42,559 nucleotides of DNA. Source: a virus (taxonomy: Duplodnaviria; Heunggongvirae; Uroviricota; Caudoviricetes). Shown piece by piece: positions 1-41,191 of this stretch. The first letter of the stretch is position 1; every line of letters starts with the position of its first letter. The position numbers and the translations under genes were made by a program. The notes below the pieces were generated by a model. That model was not told the DNA's origin, did not search any database, and saw only the letters and a list, made by a program, of their open reading frames with translations. The stretch is taken from IMG/VR virus record IMGVR_UViG_2872698443_000008, one strand, 5' to 3'.

Positions 1-2754
1 ATGAACTGGATTGGTTCTCGGTGGTGGAAATTCGACTTCCATAATCACACTCCGGCATCGGACGATTATGGAAAAGGCCCTAATCAGGCCCAGTATATGC
101 AGATCACTCATAAAGATTGGCTGCTCAACTACATGCGACAAGGCATCGATTGTGTCGCTGTCACGGACCATAATTCAGGCGCTTGGATTGATCCGCTCAA
201 GCAGGCACTCAAGGAACTGGCATCTGAGAGTCATGAAGATTATCGACCACTCTACTTATTCCCAGGTGTTGAGCTTACTGTTCAGGGGAATATCCATATT
301 CTGGCCATTTTCGGCGAAGACAAGACAACCTCTGATATCGACTCACTGCTTGGTGCGGTCAGGTATCGCGGCACCAAAGGAAAGAGCGACGGCTGCTCTG
401 AATGCTCAGCAGTTGAGGTGATCGACGAAATTGCTAGGTCAGGAGGACTTGCAATACCTGCTCATGTAGATCAGGCTAGCGGACTTTTTACGGTCTGTAC
501 GGGCAACACACTAGAGCAGGTGCTTGACAACAAATGTGTTTTTGCTATGGAGGTAACGGACCTTGCTAAAGCAAAACCGCAGCTCTATATTGGCAAGAAT
601 TTGAATTGGGCAGAGATTCTTGGAACCGATTCCCATCATCCGTCCGGTACCGGAAATCAACGCTACCCGGGTAGCCATTTCACTTGGGTAAAAATGTCGG
701 AGCCATCTTATGACGGATTACGGCTGGCGCTCGTTGATGGGGCTCTTTCACTGAAGCGGTCGGACAACTTCACTGGTGACCCAAATATCCATGGACAACT
801 TGCCATCGAAAGTATCGTGGTTGATGATGCGAAGTACTTAGGACGAGGGCAATCTTTAACTTGTCAACTGAACCCCTGGCTCAACACTATCATTGGTGGA
901 CGAGGCACTGGGAAATCGACTTCGTTGGAATTCCTGCGGATTGCTCTTAAACGAAAGGGAGAAATCCCCAAGAGCCTTGAAAAGGAATTTACCAAATACA
1001 GTCAAACTTCGAAAGACCGCCAAGATGAAGGGCTGTTAAAAGATTCCACGAAAATAACTGTAGGCTTTCGAAAAGACGGTGGCCGTTTCCGAATCACCTG
1101 GTCTAATACCGACGACATATACAGCATCGAGGAAGAGACCGCTCCCGGAGTCTGGTGTGATTCCGAGGGAGACATAGCACAACGATTTCCTGTCAGGATT
1201 TACAGCCAGAAACAGATATTCGAATTGGCAAAGCATCCCCAAGCACTCTTGCAGGTTGTCGATGATGCCCCGGAGGTCAATCATCGTGATTGGCAGCTTA
1301 AGTGGGATGAACTGGTTTCCAAATATCTCTCGCTTCGCGCCCAAGAGCGTGAAGTTCAGGCTGGGCTTCAGGAAGAATCGGTAACCAAAGGTCAGCTTGA
1401 AGACGTCAAACGCAAACTCGATGTTTTTGAAAAGGCGGGCCACGCGGATGTCCTTAAGGCTTACCAACTCAGACAGAACCAGAGTAAGGCTATGGACTCC
1501 TGGGTAACGACTTGGGAGGATTCCGCCGAACAGGTCCGAGATATTTCTGGAAGCCTACTGCCAGCAGAATTGGATTTACAATATTTCGACATTGGGAATG
1601 CGGATGACAAAGAACTCTTCGATACCATCAAGGACATCCGTGCGACGTTTGAGAAGCTTCAGACAGAGATGAACTCGATCGCGCAGCGGATTGATGATGT
1701 GAAGAACTCATGGAATCAAACTCGATCAGACTTGGGAATATCGAAAAGAATTACAGCGGCGAGCCATGAATACAACGCCCTCCTCGGTCAACTCAGCGCA
1801 GCAGACGCAGGTGATCCATCTGCATATGGTGTTCTGGTTAAGCAGCGACAAGATTTCGAAGATAAGCTCAAGGGATTCGACAAAAAGAGAGAAACTCTTG
1901 CGCAGCATCAGAAGAGCGCGGAAGAATACTTGGTCAAACTCCATGAGCATCGAGCATTGATAACCAAACTTCGTGAGGACTTTCTCAAGGATACTCTCGT
2001 CGGCAATTCATATGTACAGATCAATGTCATTCCGTTTGGAAACAAGATTACGGTTGAGGAAGAATTCCGTAACCTGATCGGCCGCAGTGGTGGCGGATTT
2101 GACCGCGACATTGGAGTTGTTGACGGGGATGAGGGCTTGCTGGCTTATTTAACGCAAGACCAATCCAATACTATGGATGATAAAATTGAGAAAATAAAAT
2201 CATCGCTACTTGCAATCCATGAAAACGATACTATGGCGGTGGAATCCTGCAAAGATCGACGTTTTGTATCCCTCATTCAGGGGCTAACTCCGGAACAGAT
2301 AGATCGAATTCAGTGCTGGTTTCCAGGCGATTCTCTGGATATCAGATATAGCCTCAAGAACGGCGAGAGTTTCAAACCCGTAGAGCAAGGATCTCCGGGG
2401 CAAAAAACGGCGGCTCTCCTTGCATTTATCCTTTCATATGGCAATGAGCCTCTTATACTTGATCAGCCTGAGGATGATCTTGATAACCACTTAATCTATG
2501 ATCTTATCGTGACGCAATTGCGTGAGATCAAACAAAAACGGCAGGTTTTAGTAGTCACGCACAACGCTAACATCGTCGTGAATGGTGACGCGGAAAACGT
2601 CATTGCCCTTGATATTCGGTCTGGTCAAACCAGAATTGTGGCGCAAGGGGGTCTTCAAGAACCTTCCATACGCGATGAGATATGCCGAGTGATGGAAGGT
2701 GGCAAAGAGGCCTTTACCCAAAGATATAAACGAATCAATGCAGCAATCAAATAG
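1..2754 (+). CDS. PHP-domain phosphoesterase fused to ABC/SMC-type ATPase with central coiled coil (917 aa); candidate single-gene defence protein
   Basis: Full-length ORF from position 1. N-terminal PHP motifs FDFHNHT, VTDHNS, PAHVD, GTDSHH. Walker A GGRGTGKST at nt 895-921. Long E/K/Q/L-rich region (aa ~400-700). C-terminal ABC signature-like SPGQKTAAL, Walker B LILDQPEDDLD (nt ~2461-2490), H-loop VVTHNANIV. Confidence 0.8.
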   Translation: MNWIGSRWWKFDFHNHTPASDDYGKGPNQAQYMQITHKDWLLNYMRQGIDCVAVTDHNSGAWIDPLKQALKELASESHEDYRPLYLFPGVELTVQGNIHILAIFGEDKTTSDIDSLLGAVRYRGTKGKSDGCSECSAVEVIDEIARSGGLAIPAHVDQASGLFTVCTGNTLEQVLDNKCVFAMEVTDLAKAKPQLYIGKNLNWAEILGTDSHHPSGTGNQRYPGSHFTWVKMSEPSYDGLRLALVDGALSLKRSDNFTGDPNIHGQLAIESIVVDDAKYLGRGQSLTCQLNPWLNTIIGGRGTGKSTSLEFLRIALKRKGEIPKSLEKEFTKYSQTSKDRQDEGLLKDSTKITVGFRKDGGRFRITWSNTDDIYSIEEETAPGVWCDSEGDIAQRFPVRIYSQKQIFELAKHPQALLQVVDDAPEVNHRDWQLKWDELVSKYLSLRAQEREVQAGLQEESVTKGQLEDVKRKLDVFEKAGHADVLKAYQLRQNQSKAMDSWVTTWEDSAEQVRDISGSLLPAELDLQYFDIGNADDKELFDTIKDIRATFEKLQTEMNSIAQRIDDVKNSWNQTRSDLGISKRITAASHEYNALLGQLSAADAGDPSAYGVLVKQRQDFEDKLKGFDKKRETLAQHQKSAEEYLVKLHEHRALITKLREDFLKDTLVGNSYVQINVIPFGNKITVEEEFRNLIGRSGGGFDRDIGVVDGDEGLLAYLTQDQSNTMDDKIEKIKSSLLAIHENDTMAVESCKDRRFVSLIQGLTPEQIDRIQCWFPGDSLDIRYSLKNGESFKPVEQGSPGQKTAALLAFILSYGNEPLILDQPEDDLDNHLIYDLIVTQLREIKQKRQVLVVTHNANIVVNGDAENVIALDIRSGQTRIVAQGGLQEPSIRDEICRVMEGGKEAFTQRYKRINAAIK

Positions 2755-2860
2755 AACGGAGTTGCACTTGAACGGCAATTGCGCTGAGCTCAATTGCCGC
2801 CAATGCTTGGTCGTTAACGTCTGCTCCTGGCACAGGGCTGCTGTTGCAGCCCTGACAACC

Positions 2861-3076
2861 TTAGACTTCAATCGATTCAGAGATCTCTAACGCATCATCG
2901 ACTTCAATGCCCAGATAACGGAATGTGCTTTCCAGTTTCTTATGACCCAACAGAAGTTGAATCACCCGAAGATTCTTGGTCAGCGGACAATAGGTGCAAC
3001 GCCATATTGAACCCTTAAGACTAAAGTGGACCGATATAGTAAGCGTTACACTGACCCGTTGCCAGCATCGAAATGC
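2861..3076 (-). pseudogene. Tyrosine recombinase C-terminal remnant (no start codon, ~70 codons open)
   Basis: Minus-strand translation reads ...TKNLRVIQLLLGHKKLESTFRYLGIEVDDALEISESIEV*, resembling the LLGH...Y box II region of integrases/Xer recombinases. Upstream frame closed by a stop at 3077-3079. Confidence 0.4.
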
Positions 3077-3344
3077 CTAAGCTACGAAAACTCTTTGACG
3101 GACATAATGTTCCTCATGTTTGCCACATGTCTCCGATTGAGCACAACTATAGTCTGCTGATGAGACTAATTATGGCACTGAGCAGACCTGCTCGCTAGGC
3201 GAGATCCGCTGTGAGCGAATTGCAGAGGTCTCGAATATGCTTGATAATAATGCTTGAAGATATAATTGGTATGAGCCTGAAAATTTATTTTTAAAGAATT
3301 ATTAAATACTGCCGATGTTAATAATTATACTAAAAAAAAGGAAC

Positions 3345-3851
3345 ATGGAATTTATGTTAAATTTAGACGAAATGTGCAGCGCATTAAGAAAACAATACTC
3401 TATAACGGCTGGTCAAGATGGTGAGAAATATGCTAGTAGATGGCTGGAAAAATCCAAGTGGAAATTTGAACATGTTGAGCAAGGAATAAATACTTTATCT
3501 GCAAACTTGAAATCATATGGGGGGAAACGCCCCGATTTCATTATTGACGCTGACGAATCCTCTTATATTCTTTTAGATGCGAAGTATCACTCAACAGATG
3601 GGTGTACCTCCTTTACACTTACTGATTGTGAAATAGGAAAGTATAGAGCACTTCAGCAATTCTTAAAAAATGTGTATAGTGATTGTACTTTCGAAGTAGT
3701 CTTTATGGTGTTTCCGAAAGAAAAAAATGGTGACGAATTTACATTTGTGAGTCTAGATGAGTTTGATAAAGGAGAGTGTACGACTCTAGCATCAAAAGAT
3801 GCAACGAAAATTAGTCTACTCTATCGAGATGACTTATGGTTTAAAAGTTGA
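3345..3851 (+). CDS. Small low-GC protein with PD-(D/E)xK nuclease-like motif (about 168 aa)
   Basis: ORF 3315-3851; ATG at 3345 follows AAGGA (ATG at 3354 is an alternative). Motif KRPDFIIDADESSYILLDAKYH (PD ... D-A-K). Markedly AT-rich relative to flanks. Confidence 0.6.
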   Translation: MEFMLNLDEMCSALRKQYSITAGQDGEKYASRWLEKSKWKFEHVEQGINTLSANLKSYGGKRPDFIIDADESSYILLDAKYHSTDGCTSFTLTDCEIGKYRALQQFLKNVYSDCTFEVVFMVFPKEKNGDEFTFVSLDEFDKGECTTLASKDATKISLLYRDDLWFKS

Positions 3852-4193
3852 TTAATAAAAAACAATTGGCTTTCACCATTTTTAATTACTTTTCCCAGCA
3901 TGCCGAAAATGTCTCATTTATTTGAATGATTGTATCTTTAATAGATATATCGCGACTATTCCTAAACTTATTTCTAGTTGTTAACAAAACTGTGTGCTAT
4001 GAATGTCTGCTGTTGGCACATAGCAGTTCTAGAGACAGTGGCGTAAAGTCATGGAGAATCGGTGGAAGGAGGTGCAAACCCTCTCATACAAAAATGCGTA
4101 AAATCAGTAACGGCTGGAAATCATTCAATACTCGCACTATCAAAAGTTCACCAGCCAACCGCGACACCTCCTGCATACGACATGTCTGCGGTT

Positions 4194-4748
4194 TTATATA
4201 ACCCTGGCTGGAAACCTCTTATACAAAGTTGACACACCAACATCATAGATAATAGCCACCTTCTGGCGAGGAACGCCTGATGCAATTAATCGCCCGGCCT
4301 GCGCCCATTGTTCTGGTGTAAGTTTGGGACGACGTCCACCAATTCGTCCCTGTGCGCGAGCAGCTTCCAGTCCAGCTTTTGTTCGTTCAACAATCAGTTC
4401 TCGTTCCATTTCAGCCAGGGCACCCATCACATGAAAGAAAAAACGCCCCATCGGTGTGCTGGTATCAATAGCATCCGTCAGGCTGCGAAAATTAACGCCA
4501 CGTTCGCGCAACTCCTCAACCAGAATGACCAGATGCCGCATACTACGTCCCAGCCGATCCAGCTTCCAGACAACCAGAGTGTCACCTGCCGATAATGTCC
4601 TGAGCAGTTTTTTCAGTCCCGGCCTTTCGGACTTTGTACCGCTTACCTTGTCTTCAAAAATCAGCTCGCATCCTGCACAGTTCAGCGCATTACGTTGTAG
4701 ATCTGTGTTCTGGTCATTTGTTGACACACGTACATAGCCAATAAGCAT
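4194..4748 (-). CDS. pin: Serine DNA invertase (Pin/Gin/Hin/Cin family)
   Basis: N-terminus MLIGYVRVSTNDQNTDLQ with catalytic Ser motif, C-terminal HTH; start taken at internal Met of ORF 4194-4784. Lies next to the invertible tail-fibre segment. Confidence 0.9.
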   Translation of the reverse strand: MLIGYVRVSTNDQNTDLQRNALNCAGCELIFEDKVSGTKSERPGLKKLLRTLSAGDTLVVWKLDRLGRSMRHLVILVEELRERGVNFRSLTDAIDTSTPMGRFFFHVMGALAEMERELIVERTKAGLEAARAQGRIGGRRPKLTPEQWAQAGRLIASGVPRQKVAIIYDVGVSTLYKRFPARVI

Positions 4749-4828: not shown

Positions 4829-5164
4829 GCGGCAAAACGGAATGTGGGAACAGGGGAAAATCAGATACCAGATATGTCTGCATTTCCATCTGGCAAAAAC
4901 TGGTTTCAGTTACCAAGTGGTCATATTGTCCAAATGTTTTCGATGAATGTTTATGGGGCGGACACTAACGGAACTACAGGTAATTTCCCTATTGCATTTC
5001 CTTCAGGCGCACTGGCTGTTAGTGCCTTATGGTCAGATGGCACATTAACGGCTGCTCCGACCTTTAAACTTATGGGGTACACGACAACAAGGACATCAGT
5101 AACCTTAAAAGTATCAGCCGGAAATGGTTTGTATGGAACTATGATTATCGCAATAGGAAGATAA
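4829..5164 (+). CDS. Silent alternative tail-fibre C-terminal cassette (promoterless, no own start)
   Basis: Open frame 4775-5164 on the opposite strand to the expressed fibre, ending 1 nt before the alternative assembly gene; begins at the crossover site. Confidence 0.5.
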   Translation, partial: AAKRNVGTGENQIPDMSAFPSGKNWFQLPSGHIVQMFSMNVYGADTNGTTGNFPIAFPSGALAVSALWSDGTLTAAPTFKLMGYTTTRTSVTLKVSAGNGLYGTMIIAIGR

Positions 5165-5380
5165 TATGAATCAATATATTTATTCCCCTTCGGAAAATGC
5201 TTTTTATGCTGTTAATTTAAAAAACACTTATGAAGTAAATGGAACATGGCCTGCTGATGCATTAGATATTCCTGATGACATTTCTGTAAAATATATGGCG
5301 GAACCGCCACAAGGGAAAATCCGAGTTGCAGGGGAAAATGGTTTTCCCACATGGGTTGAAATACCGGTAATGACTCCAAC

Positions 5381-5884
5381 TTATTGATAGTGTTTTATGT
5401 TCAGATAATGCCCGATGACTTTGTCATGCAGCTCCACCGATTTTGAGAACGACAGCGACTTCCGTCCCAGCCGTGCCAGGTGCTGCCTCAGATTCAGGTT
5501 ATGCCGCTCAATTCGCTGCGTATATCGCTTGCTGATTACGTGCAGCTTTCCCTTCAGGCGGGATTCATACAGCGGCCAGCCATCCGTCATCCATATCACC
5601 ACGTCAAAGGGTGACAGCAGGCTCATAAGACGCCCCAGCGTCGCCATCGTGCGTTCACCGAATACGTGCGCAACAACCGTCTTCCGGAGCCTGTCATACG
5701 CGTAAAACAGCCAGCGCTGGCGCGATTTAGCCCCGACATAGCCCCACTGTTCGTCCATTTCCGCGCAGACGATGACGTCACTGCCCGGCTGTATGCGCGA
5801 GGTTACCGACTGCGGCCTGAGTTTTTTAAGTGACGTAAAATCGTGTTGAGGCCAACGCCCATAATGCGGGCAGTTGCCCGGCAT
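5381..5884 (-). CDS. insB: IS1 transposase InsB reading frame
   Basis: Overlaps insA 3' end in a different frame, as in IS1 (InsAB' by frameshift); sequence ...[41 protein letters not shown]... Confidence 0.9.
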
Positions 5885-6078
5885 CCAACGCCATTCATGG
5901 CCATATCAATGATTTTCTGGTGCGTACCGGGTTGAGAAGCGGTGTAAGTGAACTGCAGTTGCCATGTTTTACGGCAGTGAGAGCAGAGATAGCGCTGATG
6001 TCCGGCGGTGCTTTTGCCGTTACGCACCACCCCGTCAGTAGCTGAACAGGAGGGACAGCTGATAGAAACAGAAGCCAC
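5803..6078 (-). CDS. insA: IS1 InsA
   Basis: [43 protein letters not shown]... zinc-finger N-terminus typical of InsA. Confidence 0.9.
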
Positions 6079-6356
6079 TGGAGCACCTCAAAAACACCAT
6101 CATACACTAAATCAGTAAGTTGGCAGCATTACCGAAATACCTCCACCATCACATGAGGAACTTATTGAACAGGCCGAATCAGAGAGGCAATTATTGATTA
6201 ACCAGGCCAACGAATACATGAACAGTAAACAATGGCCCGGTAAAGCCGCTATTGGTCGTCTGAAAGGCGAGGAACTGGCACAATATAATTCGTGGCTGGA
6301 TTATCTGGACGCACTGGAACTGGTCGATACTTCCGGGGCGCCAGATATTGAATGGC

Positions 6357-25228: not shown

Positions 25229-25675
25229 TCATTTGAATACAAACTGTTCTGAAAGAATATTATGACAAATATATTTCGCCTGAATACTATTATCTCTCAT
25301 TCTAATATATTCTTTGTGGGCAACAGATAAAGAACGACAACCGCTGTTTACACGTGGGTATTTTTCCAACATATGTTCGCATATCAAAAAAGCATTATTA
25401 ATAGCATTTAATTTATGGCTTAACTCTCGTAGCTCGGCCCTTTTTTCAATACGAACATTACGACTAAGAGATAAAGGTAGCTGTGATAATGCATTTGAAT
25501 AATCAGCCACTGCCATTTTCAGAGCCATTTTGGCCTTCAGAGCCTCCTGTCGCCGCCAAACATTCATTGCCCAAAAACCTAATGTAACAGTTACAATTGA
25601 ACCTAAAGCCGATACAGCTGACCACACAGTTCCCCAAGGCCAGTTAAGTAATGTATGCCACATCATAACCTCCAC
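25229..25675 (-). CDS. Low-GC membrane-anchored hypothetical protein (moron)
   Basis: 148 aa; N-terminal hydrophobic helix WGTVWSAVSALGSIVTVTLGFWAMNVW; AT-rich, with a 350-bp AT-rich upstream region. Confidence 0.5.
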   Translation of the reverse strand: MEVMMWHTLLNWPWGTVWSAVSALGSIVTVTLGFWAMNVWRRQEALKAKMALKMAVADYSNALSQLPLSLSRNVRIEKRAELRELSHKLNAINNAFLICEHMLEKYPRVNSGCRSLSVAHKEYIRMRDNSIQAKYICHNILSEQFVFK

Positions 25676-27456: not shown

Positions 27457-28509
27457 TTATTTCCCCACCAGTTCACTTACCTCTTTCACCGTCTGATTAA
27501 ACCGCTCTGACTCAAGTTCAACACCTAACGCCCGACGCCCCAGCGCCATTGCCGCTTTTATTGTGGAACCGGATCCCATAAAGAAATCAGCAACCAGATC
27601 GCCTTGTCGACTACTGGCACTGATTATTTGCCGGAGCATATCCGCAGGCTTCTCACACGGATGTTTACCCGGGTAGAACTGAACGGGTTTATGCGTCCAG
27701 ACGTCGGTATAAGGCACGGAAACTGATACGGAGAAATAGCGCCGGAGAGTTTTAAACTCATCCAGCAATTCATAATATTTGCGATTCAGTGAATCATAAG
27801 ATGCCACCAGCTGGTGGTGTGGTTGTTCCAGTTGTTGTTCCTGAAACTTCTCTGCCGCTATACGGGAAAACAGTGCCTGCAACTTCCGGTAGTCAGCCTC
27901 ATTCGGCAACTGCCACTGACTGGCACCAAACCAGTGGGAAACCATATTTTTCTTACCAGTGGCTTCGGCAATCTGTTTTGCCGTTATACCCAGTTCGGCA
28001 CGAGCATCCCTGAAATACGATATCAGCGGTGCCATTATGTGCTGTTTGAGTTCCCTTTCTTTTGCCGCATAGCCGTCACTTTTGCCGCGATATGGCCCCT
28101 GGTAATGTTCAGCAAACAGAACGCGCTCTGTGGCAGGAAAATATGCGCGCAGACTTTCTTTATTACACCCATTCCAACGTCCGGACGGCTTCGCCCAGAT
28201 GATATGGTTAAGCACGTTGAAACGTTCACGCATCATGATCTCAATATCAGATGCCAGGCGATGCCCACAGAACAGGTAAAGGCTTCCGGCAGGTTTCAAC
28301 ACCCGCCAGAACTGGGCCAGACAGTGGTCCAGCCACTTAAGGTAATCTTCGTCCCCTTTCCACTGATTGTCCCAGCCGTTGGGTTTCACCTTGAAGTAAG
28401 GCGGATCGGTAACAATCAGGTCAATGGAATCATCAGGCAGGGACTGAATAAAATGCAGGCAATCAGCGTTGATTAAATCAACACTGTTTATTTTTACAGT
28501 ATTTTTCAT
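27457..28509 (-). CDS. DNA methyltransferase (DPPY motif, N6A/N4C class)
   Basis: 350 aa; LIVTDPPYF near N-terminus, FMGSGST near C-terminus; no adjacent endonuclease. Confidence 0.85.
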   Translation of the reverse strand: MKNTVKINSVDLINADCLHFIQSLPDDSIDLIVTDPPYFKVKPNGWDNQWKGDEDYLKWLDHCLAQFWRVLKPAGSLYLFCGHRLASDIEIMMRERFNVLNHIIWAKPSGRWNGCNKESLRAYFPATERVLFAEHYQGPYRGKSDGYAAKERELKQHIMAPLISYFRDARAELGITAKQIAEATGKKNMVSHWFGASQWQLPNEADYRKLQALFSRIAAEKFQEQQLEQPHHQLVASYDSLNRKYYELLDEFKTLRRYFSVSVSVPYTDVWTHKPVQFYPGKHPCEKPADMLRQIISASSRQGDLVADFFMGSGSTIKAAMALGRRALGVELESERFNQTVKEVSELVGK

Positions 28510-29182: not shown

Positions 29183-30202
29183 TTGGATAAGTTTGATGAG
29201 ATTCATGTAGACATTGAATCTGAGCAGCAAGCCTTCGATTTGCTTGAAAGCTATCTTGATGGTTATGGTTTACCTGACAGTTTAAGTTTCAACGGATGGC
29301 CAAACCTTACCATCAGATTAACCGGTGAAAAATTCAACAGATCGCTAACACCTTCAGTTATGAAGGGATTTGTTGAAATGCAAGCTCAAATCAACAAATC
29401 ATATGCCCTTGCCAAGTACGGTGTCCCTGACGTCCGCAAACTGACCAAAGAAGAACTTGATGCCCTAGAAATAGAAGTTACGGTAGAACAGGGTTCTTCA
29501 ATAGTAGAAATCAACATTGATGGCTTTTTAACCAAACTCACACAGGAACTTGTTGGTAAAATGAACGCAACTGAGATCATGTTTACTGTTCTCGGCGCAG
29601 CAGTCATCTGGGGCGGAGTAACAGTATTTAAACGGTTCTTGGACAACCGTAAAGATATTCGCCTTGCAGAAATTGCTAAGGATGGAGAGAAAGAACATCT
29701 CCGGACTATGCAGATCATGAGCGAGCAAGAAACTAAACGCCTGCGGGTTATTTCAGAAATGATTGCGGAAAAACCACTTCTCGATAACATGGACCGTATG
29801 TCGTATGACGCTAAAACCCAAATGGTCAAATCCTTTGTGCGTTCAGATAACGCTCAAATTGATGGCGTTACTATTGATTCTGAAATGGCGAAAGAGTTGG
29901 TTACGAATGCTCGTAGACGTTCATCAGAAATGAGGATTGATGGTATTTACCGAATTGAAGAAGTCAATAATACTGACCCAGAGAGTTTCAAAGTTAAGGT
30001 CCGACGCGTAGATACCGACCAACGTCTAACCTGCGTAGTTCAGGATGTTTTCCTTGATGAATCCGGAAACAAAGAAGCATTGCAGCGAGCTGAGTGGGAA
30101 AGAAAGCCTGTACATTTGAGCATTAACGCAAAACACGTCGATGGTGACATTAAGTCAGCAGTAATTCTCTATGTTCGAGATGTGGAACAAAAGCCCGAGT
30201 AA
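29183..30202 (+). CDS. Reverse-oriented low-GC protein with single central transmembrane helix (339 aa)
   Basis: Long ORF opposite to all neighbours; TTG start with GAGGA at 29171-29175; central hydrophobic segment ATEIMFTVLGAAVIWGGVTVF. Confidence 0.6.
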   Translation: MDKFDEIHVDIESEQQAFDLLESYLDGYGLPDSLSFNGWPNLTIRLTGEKFNRSLTPSVMKGFVEMQAQINKSYALAKYGVPDVRKLTKEELDALEIEVTVEQGSSIVEINIDGFLTKLTQELVGKMNATEIMFTVLGAAVIWGGVTVFKRFLDNRKDIRLAEIAKDGEKEHLRTMQIMSEQETKRLRVISEMIAEKPLLDNMDRMSYDAKTQMVKSFVRSDNAQIDGVTIDSEMAKELVTNARRRSSEMRIDGIYRIEEVNNTDPESFKVKVRRVDTDQRLTCVVQDVFLDESGNKEALQRAEWERKPVHLSINAKHVDGDIKSAVILYVRDVEQKPE

Positions 30203-41115: not shown

Positions 41116-41191
41116 TGGTGCCGATAATAGGAGTCGAACCTACGACCTTCGCATTACGAATGCGCTGCTCTACCAACTGAGCTATATCGGC
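41116..41191 (-). tRNA. thrW: tRNA-Thr (anticodon CGU)
   Basis: Reverse complement reads GCCGATATAGCTCAGTTGGTAGAGCAGCGCATTCGTAATGCGAAGGTCGTAGGTTCGACTCCTATTATCGGCACCA. Confidence 0.9.

What the first reader, a model, noticed from the sequence alone, without database searches (positions are those of the whole stretch)
1..2754. 917-aa PHP phosphoesterase fused to an ABC/SMC-type ATPase in the cargo slot next to the tail-fibre invertase
One polypeptide carries a complete set of PHP metal-binding motifs (HNH-T, DH, PAHVD, DSHH), a Walker A (GGRGTGKST), a ~300-aa coiled-coil-like spacer, and a C-terminal signature/Walker B/H-loop. That is a nuclease-plus-ATPase layout comparable to OLD, Gabija GajA or SbcCD, with PHP in place of Toprim or Mre11. 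It sits beyond pin at the attR-proximal end of the prophage, where related prophages carry variable cargo (mcrA next to pin in e14; gtr genes in P22/SfV-type phages). From memory the architecture resembles the single-gene 'Ppl' family of Gao et al. 2020, so the protein family may already be described even if this locus is not.
Basis: partly seen in the sequence, partly recalled or inferred. Interest (0 to 1): 0.75.

Follow-up and report, generated by a model that had tools for sequence, protein, structure and literature searches.

The report
Prophage-borne Ppl-like PHP nuclease–ATPase gene
The gene is an intact, distant (30% identical) relative of the known single-gene anti-phage protein Ppl, carried as cargo at the far end of an e14-like E. 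coli prophage; it is a new member of a known family, not a new kind of system.

Summary
Window 1-2754 (+) is one intact 917-aa ORF. It has an N-terminal PHP phosphoesterase domain, an SMC/Rad50-type ABC ATPase head, and a ~240-residue helical arm inserted between Walker A and the signature motif. Two residue numbers are off by one: the histidines are H14/H16 and the Walker A lysine is K305.

- The PADLOC Ppl model matches end to end (E 2e-157).
- NCBIfam places it in the TrlF family (651 bits, cut-off 350).
- It does not reach the strict Ppl equivalog cut-off (631 bits against 1000).
- It is 30% identical, collinear over its whole length, to a RefSeq-annotated Ppl.

The gene lies inside the att-bounded prophage at tRNA-Thr (thrW). 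It sits between pinE and the distal att copy, the slot that holds mcrA in K-12 e14. Only 17 of 5,426 complete E. coli genomes carry it.

Close relatives (83-97% identity) occur in other prophages, on plasmids, and inside BREX and type I R-M operons in other phyla.

The most likely function, inferred from published Ppl work, is defence of the lysogen by a nucleotide-gated, DNA-end-triggered exonuclease. RefSeq already annotates the gene and PADLOC's Ppl model matches it. Interest is modest.

The parts
1..2754 (+). Ppl-like / TrlF-family gene, 917 aa, intact
   Evidence: ORF. PADLOC Ppl E 2.3e-157, profile positions 3-892 of 894. NCBIfam TrlF_fam_ATP 651 bits against a cut-off of 350. 30% identity over the full length to the annotated Ppl WP_015059139.
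1..786 (+). N-terminal PHP phosphoesterase (nuclease) domain, residues 1-262. Metal ligands H14, H16, H57, E91, H99, H155, D210, H212
   Evidence: These residues are invariant in 78 family members, including Ppl. The domain model has pLDDT 95. Foldseek matches EndoQ (TMq 0.67, E 5e-10), TM0559, RNase AM and the Pol III alpha PHP domain. The family profile hits solved PHP proteins at E 1.7e-10.
856..1281 (+). ATPase head, N-terminal half, residues ~286-427. Walker A GGRGTGKST at 299-307 (K305), Q403
   Evidence: Motif positions. G299, G302, G304, K305, S306 and Q403 are invariant. Foldseek matches SMC, MukB, JetC, Rad50 and RecN heads.
1282..1995 (+). Antiparallel helical (coiled-coil-like) arm, residues 428-665. 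The turn is around 519-533 and has no cysteine hook
   Evidence: AlphaFold2 secondary structure: helices 428-456, 458-505, 508-518, 534-575, 579-600, 607-665; pLDDT mostly 70-95. The sequence of the turn contains no Cys.
1996..2751 (+). ATPase head, C-terminal half, residues 666-917. Signature SPGQK 798-802, Walker B 818-828 (D821, E824), H-loop H854, conserved C-terminal C895/E899-G901/R908
   Evidence: Motif positions, invariant columns, Pfam AAA_21 above its gathering score, Rad50 sequence hits.
2755..2834 (+). 3' flank that travels with the gene. It contains the hairpin GGCAATTG...CAATTGCC at 2774-2798
   Evidence: The flank is conserved in the E. coli prophage, the Klebsiella plasmid and the Klebsiella prophage copies; similarity stops near 2834. 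megablast matches to plasmid copies end at 2834. Hairpin coordinates and fold.
4194..4748 (-). pinE serine invertase. It marks the inner edge of the cargo slot
   Evidence: Pfam Resolvase E 7e-52 plus HTH_7. RefSeq annotates pinE at this position in identical genomes.
41116..41191 (-). tRNA-Thr(CGU), thrW: the integrase-proximal att site of the prophage. The distal copy lies 362-410 bp before window position 1, outside the window
   Evidence: ARAGORN. A repeat of at least 48 bp is found at L002 3591-3639 and in L001. The integrase sits next to the tRNA.

Best explanation
The gene encodes a stand-alone defence protein of the Ppl/TrlF family, carried as a lysogenic-conversion gene by an e14-like prophage.

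Shown here:
- One chain joins a PHP metal-dependent nuclease domain to an SMC/Rad50-type ABC ATPase head that carries a short helical arm.
- All catalytic and nucleotide-binding residues are intact and invariant across the family.
- The gene moves as a ~3-kb cassette with its own conserved leader and 3' hairpin.
- It lands in prophage cargo slots, on plasmids and in defence islands.

Inferred from published work on E. coli Ppl (Xu et al. 2026, as summarised in PMC12904381):
- In an uninfected cell, bound NTPs keep the PHP exonuclease and the NTPase domain inactive.
- When an infecting phage drains the nucleotide pool and creates DNA ends with 3'-hydroxyl overhangs, the protein engages those ends. 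The published trigger is a phage homing endonuclease.
- The protein then degrades ssDNA 3'->5', which halts phage replication.

Here this would protect the lysogen, and so the prophage, from superinfecting phages.
For: Family assignment:
- PADLOC Ppl E 2.3e-157 over the full length.
- NCBIfam TrlF family 651 bits against a cut-off of 350.
- BLASTP against the RefSeq 'anti-phage protein Ppl' gives 30% identity over 99% of the length, E 5e-125.

Active sites:
- H14, H16, D56, H57, E91, H99, H155, D210, H212, K305, S798, D821, E824 and H854 are invariant in 78 diverse members, including Ppl.

Folds:
- The full-length model has pLDDT 90.8 and matches SMC, MukB, JetC, Rad50 and RecN heads.
- The N-terminal domain matches the PHP nucleases EndoQ and RNase AM and the Pol III PHP domain.

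Accessory, mobile and defence-linked:
- 17 of 5,426 complete E. coli genomes carry it.
- It lies inside the att-bounded prophage, in the slot that holds mcrA in e14.
- Relatives sit beside a type II R-M pair on a Klebsiella plasmid.
- Others sit inside a type I R-M operon and inside BREX-like clusters.
- Others sit in other prophages.
- None has a constant partner gene.

Mechanism of Ppl from the literature.
Against: - No experiment exists on this protein or on its clade.
- It is only 30% identical to the tested Ppl and falls below NCBI's Ppl equivalog cut-off (631 against 1000 bits).
- Ppl proper is an outlier that is roughly equidistant (~29-31%) from the window protein and its own closest representatives of this clade. 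Trigger and substrate specificity may therefore differ.
- The primary Ppl paper could not be read. The mechanism is taken from a review's summary and from the paper's title.
- No sigma-70 consensus promoter was found in the conserved leader, so expression in the lysogen is not shown.
Confidence: 0.72

Rival explanations
1. It is an accessory effector of methylation-based immunity (R-M or BREX), not an autonomous sensor. The exonuclease would process DNA ends made by a partner restriction activity. The E. coli prophage copy would be a detached or orphan version.
For: Relatives at 83-85% identity sit directly after a methyltransferase gene with 0-4-nt gene junctions:
- in a type I R-M operon in Dethiosulfovibrio;
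- in BREX-like clusters in Sphaerochaeta and Acidithiobacillus.

Another sits right after brxL. A 38%-identical relative follows a DEAD helicase and an N6-methylase on an IncFIA plasmid.
Against: In E. coli, Klebsiella and Proteus the same cassette stands alone in prophages, with its own conserved leader and no adjacent R-M genes. Unrelated defence genes are commonly nested in R-M and BREX operons without depending on them (general knowledge). Ppl proper protects as a single gene.
Confidence: 0.12
2. It acts mainly against plasmids or other mobile DNA, recognising DNA shape or ends through its SMC-like head and arm as Wadjet or Lamassu do, and not against lytic phages.
For: The best structural matches include the JetC, MukB and Rad50 heads. 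PADLOC gives weaker hits to LmuB, mad3, AriA and GajA.
Against: - The arm is short (~240 residues) and has no hinge or zinc hook.
- No kleisin-like or KITE-like partner is encoded nearby.
- The gene itself rides on conjugative plasmids.
- Its closest characterised relative is an anti-phage protein.
Confidence: 0.07
3. It works like TrlF of the Photorhabdus Temperature Restricting Locus, as part of a growth-arrest module with a RecG-like helicase. Alternatively it is a prophage DNA-repair or recombination enzyme of the SbcCD type.
For: NCBIfam names it as TrlF family. The family name comes from the trlR-trlF-trlG operon. The domain logic is the same as Mre11-Rad50/SbcCD.
Against: - No RecG-like helicase or trlR is nearby.
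- In Photorhabdus no temperature-resistant mutation mapped to trlF.
- The gene sits outside the prophage replication and recombination modules, in a slot whose content varies between related prophages.
- It is absent from 99.7% of E. coli genomes.
Confidence: 0.05

Closest known systems
Ppl (Gao et al. 2020 single-gene defence system; PADLOC PDLC02208; NCBIfam NF042955; mechanism in Xu et al. 2026, Mol Cell 86:180)
   Same: - Single polypeptide with an N-terminal PHP domain, then an ABC ATPase head split by a helical arm.
- Collinear alignment over 99% of the length.
- Identical PHP ligands, Walker A/B, signature and H-loop.
- Carried on mobile elements of Enterobacteriaceae.
   Different: - Only 30% identity.
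- Scores 631 bits against the 1000-bit equivalog cut-off.
- Belongs to a separate, much larger clade (150+ clusters at 34-53% identity), to which Ppl proper is an outlier.
- Sits in a prophage, whereas the Ppl copies seen here are on IncF-type plasmids.
- Untested.
TrlF of the Photorhabdus laumondii Temperature Restricting Locus (PMC7554251; NCBIfam NF045780)
   Same: The window protein passes the curated TrlF-family cut-off (651 against 350 bits). Same PHP + ATPase architecture.
   Different: No trlG RecG-like helicase and no trlR regulator next to it. A stand-alone TrlF-family protein from a Yersinia ruckeri plasmid aligns with the window protein only over the C-terminal ATPase part.
SbcCD / Mre11-Rad50
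   Same: A metal-dependent nuclease working with an SMC-like ABC ATPase that has a coiled-coil arm and acts on DNA ends. The ATPase head fold matches Rad50.
   Different: - Nuclease and ATPase are fused in one chain.
- The nuclease is PHP, not a calcineurin-like phosphoesterase.
- The arm is short and has no CxxC zinc hook.
OLD-family nucleases / Gabija GajA
   Same: An ABC ATPase fused to a nuclease in a single defence protein. Published work reports nucleotide-pool sensing for both Gabija and Ppl. Weak PADLOC GajA hits fall on the ATPase motifs.
   Different: The nuclease is an N-terminal PHP domain, not a C-terminal Toprim domain. No GajB-like helicase partner is present.
McrA in the e14 prophage of E. 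coli K-12
   Same: It occupies the same position: between pinE and the distal att site of an e14-type prophage. It is a prophage-borne defence nuclease.
   Different: An unrelated protein: an HNH type IV restriction enzyme. e14 integrates at icd, whereas this prophage integrates at thrW.
PHP nucleases EndoQ and RNase AM (YciV/TrpH)
   Same: Best structural and profile matches for residues 1-262.
   Different: These are stand-alone enzymes without an ATPase, at 17-23% identity. Their substrate preferences cannot be transferred to this protein.

Membership tests
Ppl (single-gene anti-phage system) | One polypeptide with an N-terminal PHP domain and a C-terminal ABC-type ATPase, collinear with Ppl over its full length | tested here: met
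   PADLOC Ppl HMM positions 3-892 of 894, E 2.3e-157. BLASTP against WP_015059139: 99% coverage, 30% identity, E 5e-125.
Ppl (single-gene anti-phage system) | Complete PHP metal-binding residue set | tested here: met
   H14, H16, H57, E91, H99, H155, D210 and H212 are invariant in a 78-sequence alignment that includes Ppl. PHP fold confirmed.
Ppl (single-gene anti-phage system) | Intact Walker A, Walker B, signature motif and H-loop | tested here: met
   Positions 299-307, 818-828, 798-802 and 851-857. K305, D821, E824, S798 and H854 are invariant.
Ppl (single-gene anti-phage system) | NCBIfam equivalog NF042955 curated cut-off (1000 bits) | tested here: not met
   631.3 bits. By NCBI's rule it is a homologue of the tested protein, not an equivalog.
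Ppl (single-gene anti-phage system) | Acts alone, with no conserved partner gene | tested here: met
   Neighbours differ in every context examined: E. coli, Klebsiella and Proteus prophages, a plasmid, and R-M and BREX operons. Cassette similarity ends ~130 bp upstream and ~80 bp downstream of the gene.
Ppl (single-gene anti-phage system) | Confers phage resistance; 3'-5' ssDNA exonuclease inhibited by NTPs and triggered by 3'-OH overhangs | not testable with these tools
   Known for E. coli Ppl only, from the literature.
TrlF family AAA-like ATPase (NCBIfam NF045780) | Score above the curated cut-off of 350 bits over the full-length model | tested here: met
   651.4 bits, model positions 2-943 of 944. 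RefSeq annotates identical proteins with this name.
TRL operon (trlR-trlF-trlG) of Photorhabdus | Adjacent RecG-like helicase gene trlG and small regulator gene trlR | tested here: not met
   No helicase or small HTH gene flanks the ORF in the window or in the upstream sequence of identical genomes. Operon description from PMC7554251.
SMC/Rad50-type ABC ATPases | ABC head fold with an antiparallel helical arm inserted between Walker A and the signature motif | tested here: met
   The model places helices at 428-665 between residues 307 and 798. Foldseek top hits are Smc, MukB, JetC, Rad50 and RecN heads, E 1e-11 to 1e-7.
SMC/Rad50-type ABC ATPases | Rad50-type CxxC zinc hook or SMC hinge at the tip of the arm | tested here: not met
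   The turn region ~519-533 (LLPAELDLQYFDIGNADDKELF) has no cysteine and no globular hinge.
OLD / GajA nucleases | C-terminal Toprim nuclease domain | tested here: not met
   No Toprim hit in Pfam or NCBIfam. GajA PADLOC hits (E 2e-5 or weaker) cover only the ATPase motifs.

The most novel reading that the evidence does not exclude
The window protein belongs to a distinct, unstudied lineage of the Ppl/TrlF family that has crossed phylum boundaries recently.
- It shares 83-85% amino-acid and 81-83% nucleotide identity with copies in a Dethiosulfovibrio genome (Synergistota by its NCBI label), in a Sphaerochaeta-labelled metagenomic contig, in Proteus and, at the protein level, in an Acidithiobacillus MAG.
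- The gene's GC stays near 0.48 in these three cross-phylum hosts (0.43 in Proteus), although the flanking DNA ranges from 0.35 to 0.57.

Outside Enterobacterales it is repeatedly placed directly after the methyltransferase gene of type I R-M and BREX operons.

The untested reading is that its end-sensing exonuclease is a plug-in 'finisher'. It would degrade DNA from 3'-OH ends made by any upstream endonuclease, whether a restriction enzyme or a phage homing enzyme. The prophage copy would then exploit ends made by the invader itself.
Probability: 0.2. Interest if true: 0.55.

Novelty: new member of a known kind. Interest (0 to 1): 0.3.

Why it matters
- It adds a documented case of a defence gene in the pin-distal cargo slot of e14-type prophages. 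Three contents were seen in that slot: mcrA in K-12 e14, a DUF4365 protein in strain GF3-3, and the Ppl-like gene here. Only mcrA is a proven defence gene.
- It shows that the experimentally studied Ppl is one outlying branch of a much larger family: about 1,300 clusters at 50% identity with E<=1e-30. Most members are closer to this protein than to Ppl.
- If this clade shares the published Ppl mechanism, that mechanism (NTP-gated, 3'-end-triggered exonuclease) would apply to a very widely transferred cassette.
- If it does not, the clade is a natural comparison for finding what sets trigger specificity.
- For genome annotation, the practical point is that 'TrlF family AAA-like ATPase' and older 'ABC transporter' labels hide a probable anti-phage gene.

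Tried and rejected
- **Pfam on the whole protein and on its N-terminus.** No PHP hit for this sequence. I settled the PHP question with a family profile and fold searches.
- **PDB sequence search and Foldseek for a solved Ppl structure.** None is present in copies up to April 2026, so no direct structural comparison with Ppl was possible.
- **The primary Ppl mechanism paper** (Xu et al. 2026) is not held by DOI or PMID. Only secondary summaries were used.
- **Literature search for 'TrlF'.** The first search was swamped by the spectroscopy acronym TRLFS. A whole-word search found the Photorhabdus TRL paper.
- **Promoter scan of the region upstream of the gene.** No consensus sigma-70 site falls in the conserved 130-bp leader, and the number of sites is no higher than in shuffled sequence.
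- **Rfam scan of the leader and the cargo region.** Nothing found.
- **Two-gene system with the downstream 178-aa ORF: considered and rejected.** Cassette similarity ends at window ~2834, and that ORF is absent from the plasmid, Klebsiella and Proteus copies.
- **Remnant of an older island outside the prophage: considered and rejected.** No third att copy lies between the gene and pinE.
- **NCBIfam scan of the 78-sequence alignment.** I used pairwise BLAST clustering instead.
Full report
**Observation**

Window 1-2754 on the + strand is a single ORF of 917 codons that starts with ATG at position 1.
- FHNHT at 13-17
- TDHNS at 55-59
- GVELT at 89-93
- H99
- PAHVD at 153-157
- TDSHH at 209-213
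- Walker A GGRGTGKST at 299-307
- signature SPGQK at 798-802
- Walker B LILDQPEDDLD at 818-828
- H-loop VVTHNAN at 851-857

The histidines are H14 and H16, and the Walker A lysine is K305. The protein matches the family HMMs from the first to the last profile position, so it is intact.

**What the protein is**

Profile searches:
- The PADLOC model for the single-gene defence system Ppl matches residues 4-912 at E 2.3e-157.
- NCBIfam gives 651 bits to 'TrlF family AAA-like ATPase' (cut-off 350).
- NCBIfam gives 631 bits to 'anti-phage protein Ppl', whose equivalog cut-off is 1000.
- RefSeq annotates identical proteins as TrlF family. Older records call them 'ABC transporter'.

Comparison with Ppl itself:
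- A tblastn search of plasmids found genes that PGAP names ppl at about 30% identity over 99% of the query.
- Direct BLASTP against one of them (WP_015059139, plasmid pGUE-NDM) gives 30% identity, collinear from residue 4 to 912, E 5e-125.
- Another TrlF-family protein on an IncFIA plasmid is 38% identical.

The name TrlF comes from the Photorhabdus 'Temperature Restricting Locus' trlR-trlF-trlG. In that study the phenotype mapped to the RecG-like helicase TrlG and no mutation mapped to trlF (PMC7554251). Nothing like trlG or trlR flanks the gene here.

**Domains**

Pfam recognises only pieces of the ATPase (AAA_21 above its gathering score). It gives no PHP hit for this particular sequence. 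I therefore tested the PHP claim independently, and four results support it:
- A profile of 19 family N-termini hits solved PHP phosphoesterases (9etk at E 1.7e-10, RNase AM 7ug9 at 6.7e-10, TM0559, EndoQ, YcdX, histidinol phosphatase).
- Twelve of those 19 N-termini hit Pfam PHP directly.
- An AlphaFold2 model of residues 1-262 (pLDDT 95) matches EndoQ (TM 0.67), TM0559, RNase AM and the PHP domain of Pol III alpha.
- In a 78-sequence alignment that spans the family and includes Ppl, H14, H16, D56, H57, E91, H99, H155, D210 and H212 are invariant.

The same alignment has K305, Q403, S798, D821, E824 and H854 invariant.

The full-length model (pLDDT 90.8, pTM 0.76) places long helices from 428 to 665 between the two halves of the ATPase head. 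Its best PDB matches are the heads of Smc, MukB, JetC, Rad50, cohesin, condensin and RecN. The turn of the arm has no cysteine, so there is no Rad50-type hook. No Ppl structure is in the PDB copies searched.

**Genomic setting**

- The window runs from this gene's start codon to proA. It contains a complete e14-type prophage: ymfK/T/L/Q/R, pinE, Mu-like baseplate and sheath genes, an HK97-type head and an integrase. The genes were identified through an identical region of strain S163-2.
- The integrase abuts tRNA-Thr(CGU) at 41116-41191.
- A copy of at least 48 bp of the 3' part of that tRNA lies 362-410 bp upstream of window position 1. I found it in two genomes that are 100% identical to the window over 1-4200. 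No further copy lies between the gene and pinE.
- The gene is therefore inside the att-bounded element, at its integrase-distal end.
- In K-12 e14 the same slot, between pinE and the att site, holds mcrA.
- In strain GF3-3 a related thrW prophage has a DUF4365 protein and a different hypothetical gene there.
- The gene is present in 17 of 5,426 complete E. coli genomes: 13 chromosomal and 4 on plasmids. One copy is cut by an IS3-family element and one is split.

**Mobility and relatives**

- Proteins 83-97% identical occur in Klebsiella, Salmonella, Citrobacter, Hafnia, Proteus, Acidithiobacillus, Dethiosulfovibrio and Sphaerochaeta.
- Nucleotide identity to the Dethiosulfovibrio, Sphaerochaeta and Proteus copies is 81-83%. 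The gene's GC is 0.48-0.49 in the first two and 0.43 in Proteus, while flank GC ranges from 0.35 to 0.57. This points to recent transfer.
- In Enterobacterales the gene travels with about 130 bp of conserved leader and about 80 bp of 3' flank that contains a hairpin.

Contexts of the close relatives:
- a lambdoid Klebsiella prophage at icd;
- the tail-fibre end of a Proteus prophage;
- beside a cytosine methyltransferase and restriction endonuclease on a Klebsiella plasmid;
- between hsdM and hsdS of a type I R-M operon, with overlapping stop and start codons;
- directly after the methyltransferase in BREX-like clusters;
- directly after brxL;
- more distant members in defence-island-like settings.

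No neighbour is constant, so the gene acts as a stand-alone cassette.

An exhaustive HMMER search finds about 1,300 clusters (at 50% identity) with E<=1e-30. The best 150 are nearly all full-length or near full-length (a few are fragments) at 34-59% identity. Ppl proper is ~29-31% identical both to the window protein and to its own best-matching representatives, so it is an outlier to this clade.

**How it most likely works**

Shown here:
- an intact PHP nuclease site;
- an intact ABC nucleotide-binding site;
- an SMC-like head with an arm;
- mobility;
- defence-type neighbourhoods.

Inferred: the mechanism reported for E. coli Ppl. Ppl protects against T7 and is countered by Bas63 gp130. A 2026 review describes it as a ssDNA 3'-5' exonuclease with two activation requirements. 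First, NTPs bound to the PHP and NTPase domains inhibit it, and phage-induced nucleotide depletion relieves that inhibition. Second, it needs 3'-OH ends made by phage homing endonucleases. The primary source is Xu et al. 2026, Mol Cell 86:180; an earlier form of its title names T7 Gp5.3.

By analogy, the prophage-borne protein would protect the lysogen from superinfection. I put the probability of this function and mechanism at about 0.72. Family membership itself is close to certain.

**Rivals**

- **Dependence on R-M or BREX partners.** Suggested by the operon-embedded relatives, but the enterobacterial copies stand alone.
- **An anti-plasmid role like Wadjet or Lamassu.** The head fold is similar, but there is no partner subunit and no long arm, and the gene itself rides on conjugative plasmids.
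- **A TRL-type growth-arrest or SbcCD-type repair role.** There is no helicase partner, the slot is variable cargo, and the gene is in 0.3% of genomes.

**Novelty and score**

- The protein family is known and experimentally characterised.
- RefSeq already names this exact protein, and PADLOC's Ppl model matches it end to end.
- New here: the placement in the pin-distal cargo slot of a thrW e14-type prophage, the demonstration that this is a separate clade from the tested Ppl, and the cross-phylum spread with R-M/BREX embedding.

This makes it a new member of a known kind. Interest is 0.3.

Noticed in passing
window 3315-3851 (+) (RefSeq calls 3354-3851): A second cargo gene between the Ppl-like gene and pinE, in a low-GC stretch (0.36).
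- It matches phrog_28481 (unknown function) at E 3e-76.
- It has no PADLOC, NCBIfam or PDB hit.
- Pfam gives a weak RmuC hit (E 0.01).
- The sequence RPDF...LLDAKY looks like a PD-(D/E)xK nuclease motif.
- It is absent next to the cassette in other hosts.
   Followed up: partly
window 5366-6133: A complete IS1 (768 bp) with an 8-bp target duplication GAAATACC. It is inserted in the invertible tail-fibre / tail-fibre-assembly segment next to pinE. Identical prophages in other strains lack it.
   Followed up: yes
window 3999-4195: About 200 bp just beyond the 3' end of pinE is found at 87-91% identity in thousands of E. coli genomes (3,244 of 5,426 matched the 4.2-kb query, mostly through this segment). 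Different genes lie beyond it each time, for example an FRG-domain protein or a 479-aa hypothetical. It looks like a conserved module junction.
   Followed up: partly
L006 8001-10772; L007 7001-9763; L017 4142-6904; L019 7001-9757: Homologues 83-85% identical to the E. coli protein are built into type I R-M and BREX-like operons of Dethiosulfovibrio, Sphaerochaeta, an Acidithiobacillus MAG and a metagenomic contig. Most sit directly after the methyltransferase gene, with junctions of 0-4 nt.
   Followed up: partly
window 1-2754 compared with L006, L007, L009: Unusually high conservation across phyla: 83% amino-acid, 81-83% nucleotide and 64-68% third-codon-position identity. Gene GC is 0.43-0.49 while host flanks range from 0.35 to 0.57.
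   Followed up: partly
L002 3886-4000 (the 115 bp before window position 1, outside the window): A conserved leader travels with the gene in the E. coli, Klebsiella plasmid and Klebsiella prophage copies, and in part in Proteus. It contains an imperfect palindrome CTTTACAAGG-N8-TTTGCAAAG. No consensus sigma-70 promoter and no Rfam match were found.
   Followed up: partly
window 29183-30202 (+) and 25229-25675 (-): Two more low-GC (0.38-0.41) ORFs of unknown function inside the prophage. One is opposite in orientation to its neighbours. Neither has a PADLOC or meaningful Pfam hit. They may be further moron genes.
   Followed up: partly
window 27457-28509 (-); and the gene RefSeq annotates at L002 36371-37024 (roughly window 33.1-33.8 kb): The prophage encodes two DNA methyltransferases with no adjacent restriction gene. 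One is type II-like (PADLOC MTase_II, E 3e-152). The other is annotated as a phage N6-adenine methyltransferase.
   Followed up: no
E. coli PV16-126 (NZ_AP038987.1) and UPEC_U013 (NZ_CP058596.1): Two of the 17 E. coli copies are damaged. One is interrupted by an IS3-family element. The other is annotated as two pieces (TrlF family + PHP domain protein).
   Followed up: no
window from 4829 onward, compared with L002: The window is identical to strain S163-2 up to position 4829. It then diverges inside the invertible tail-fibre segment, which fits an inverted or alternative fibre cassette.
   Followed up: no
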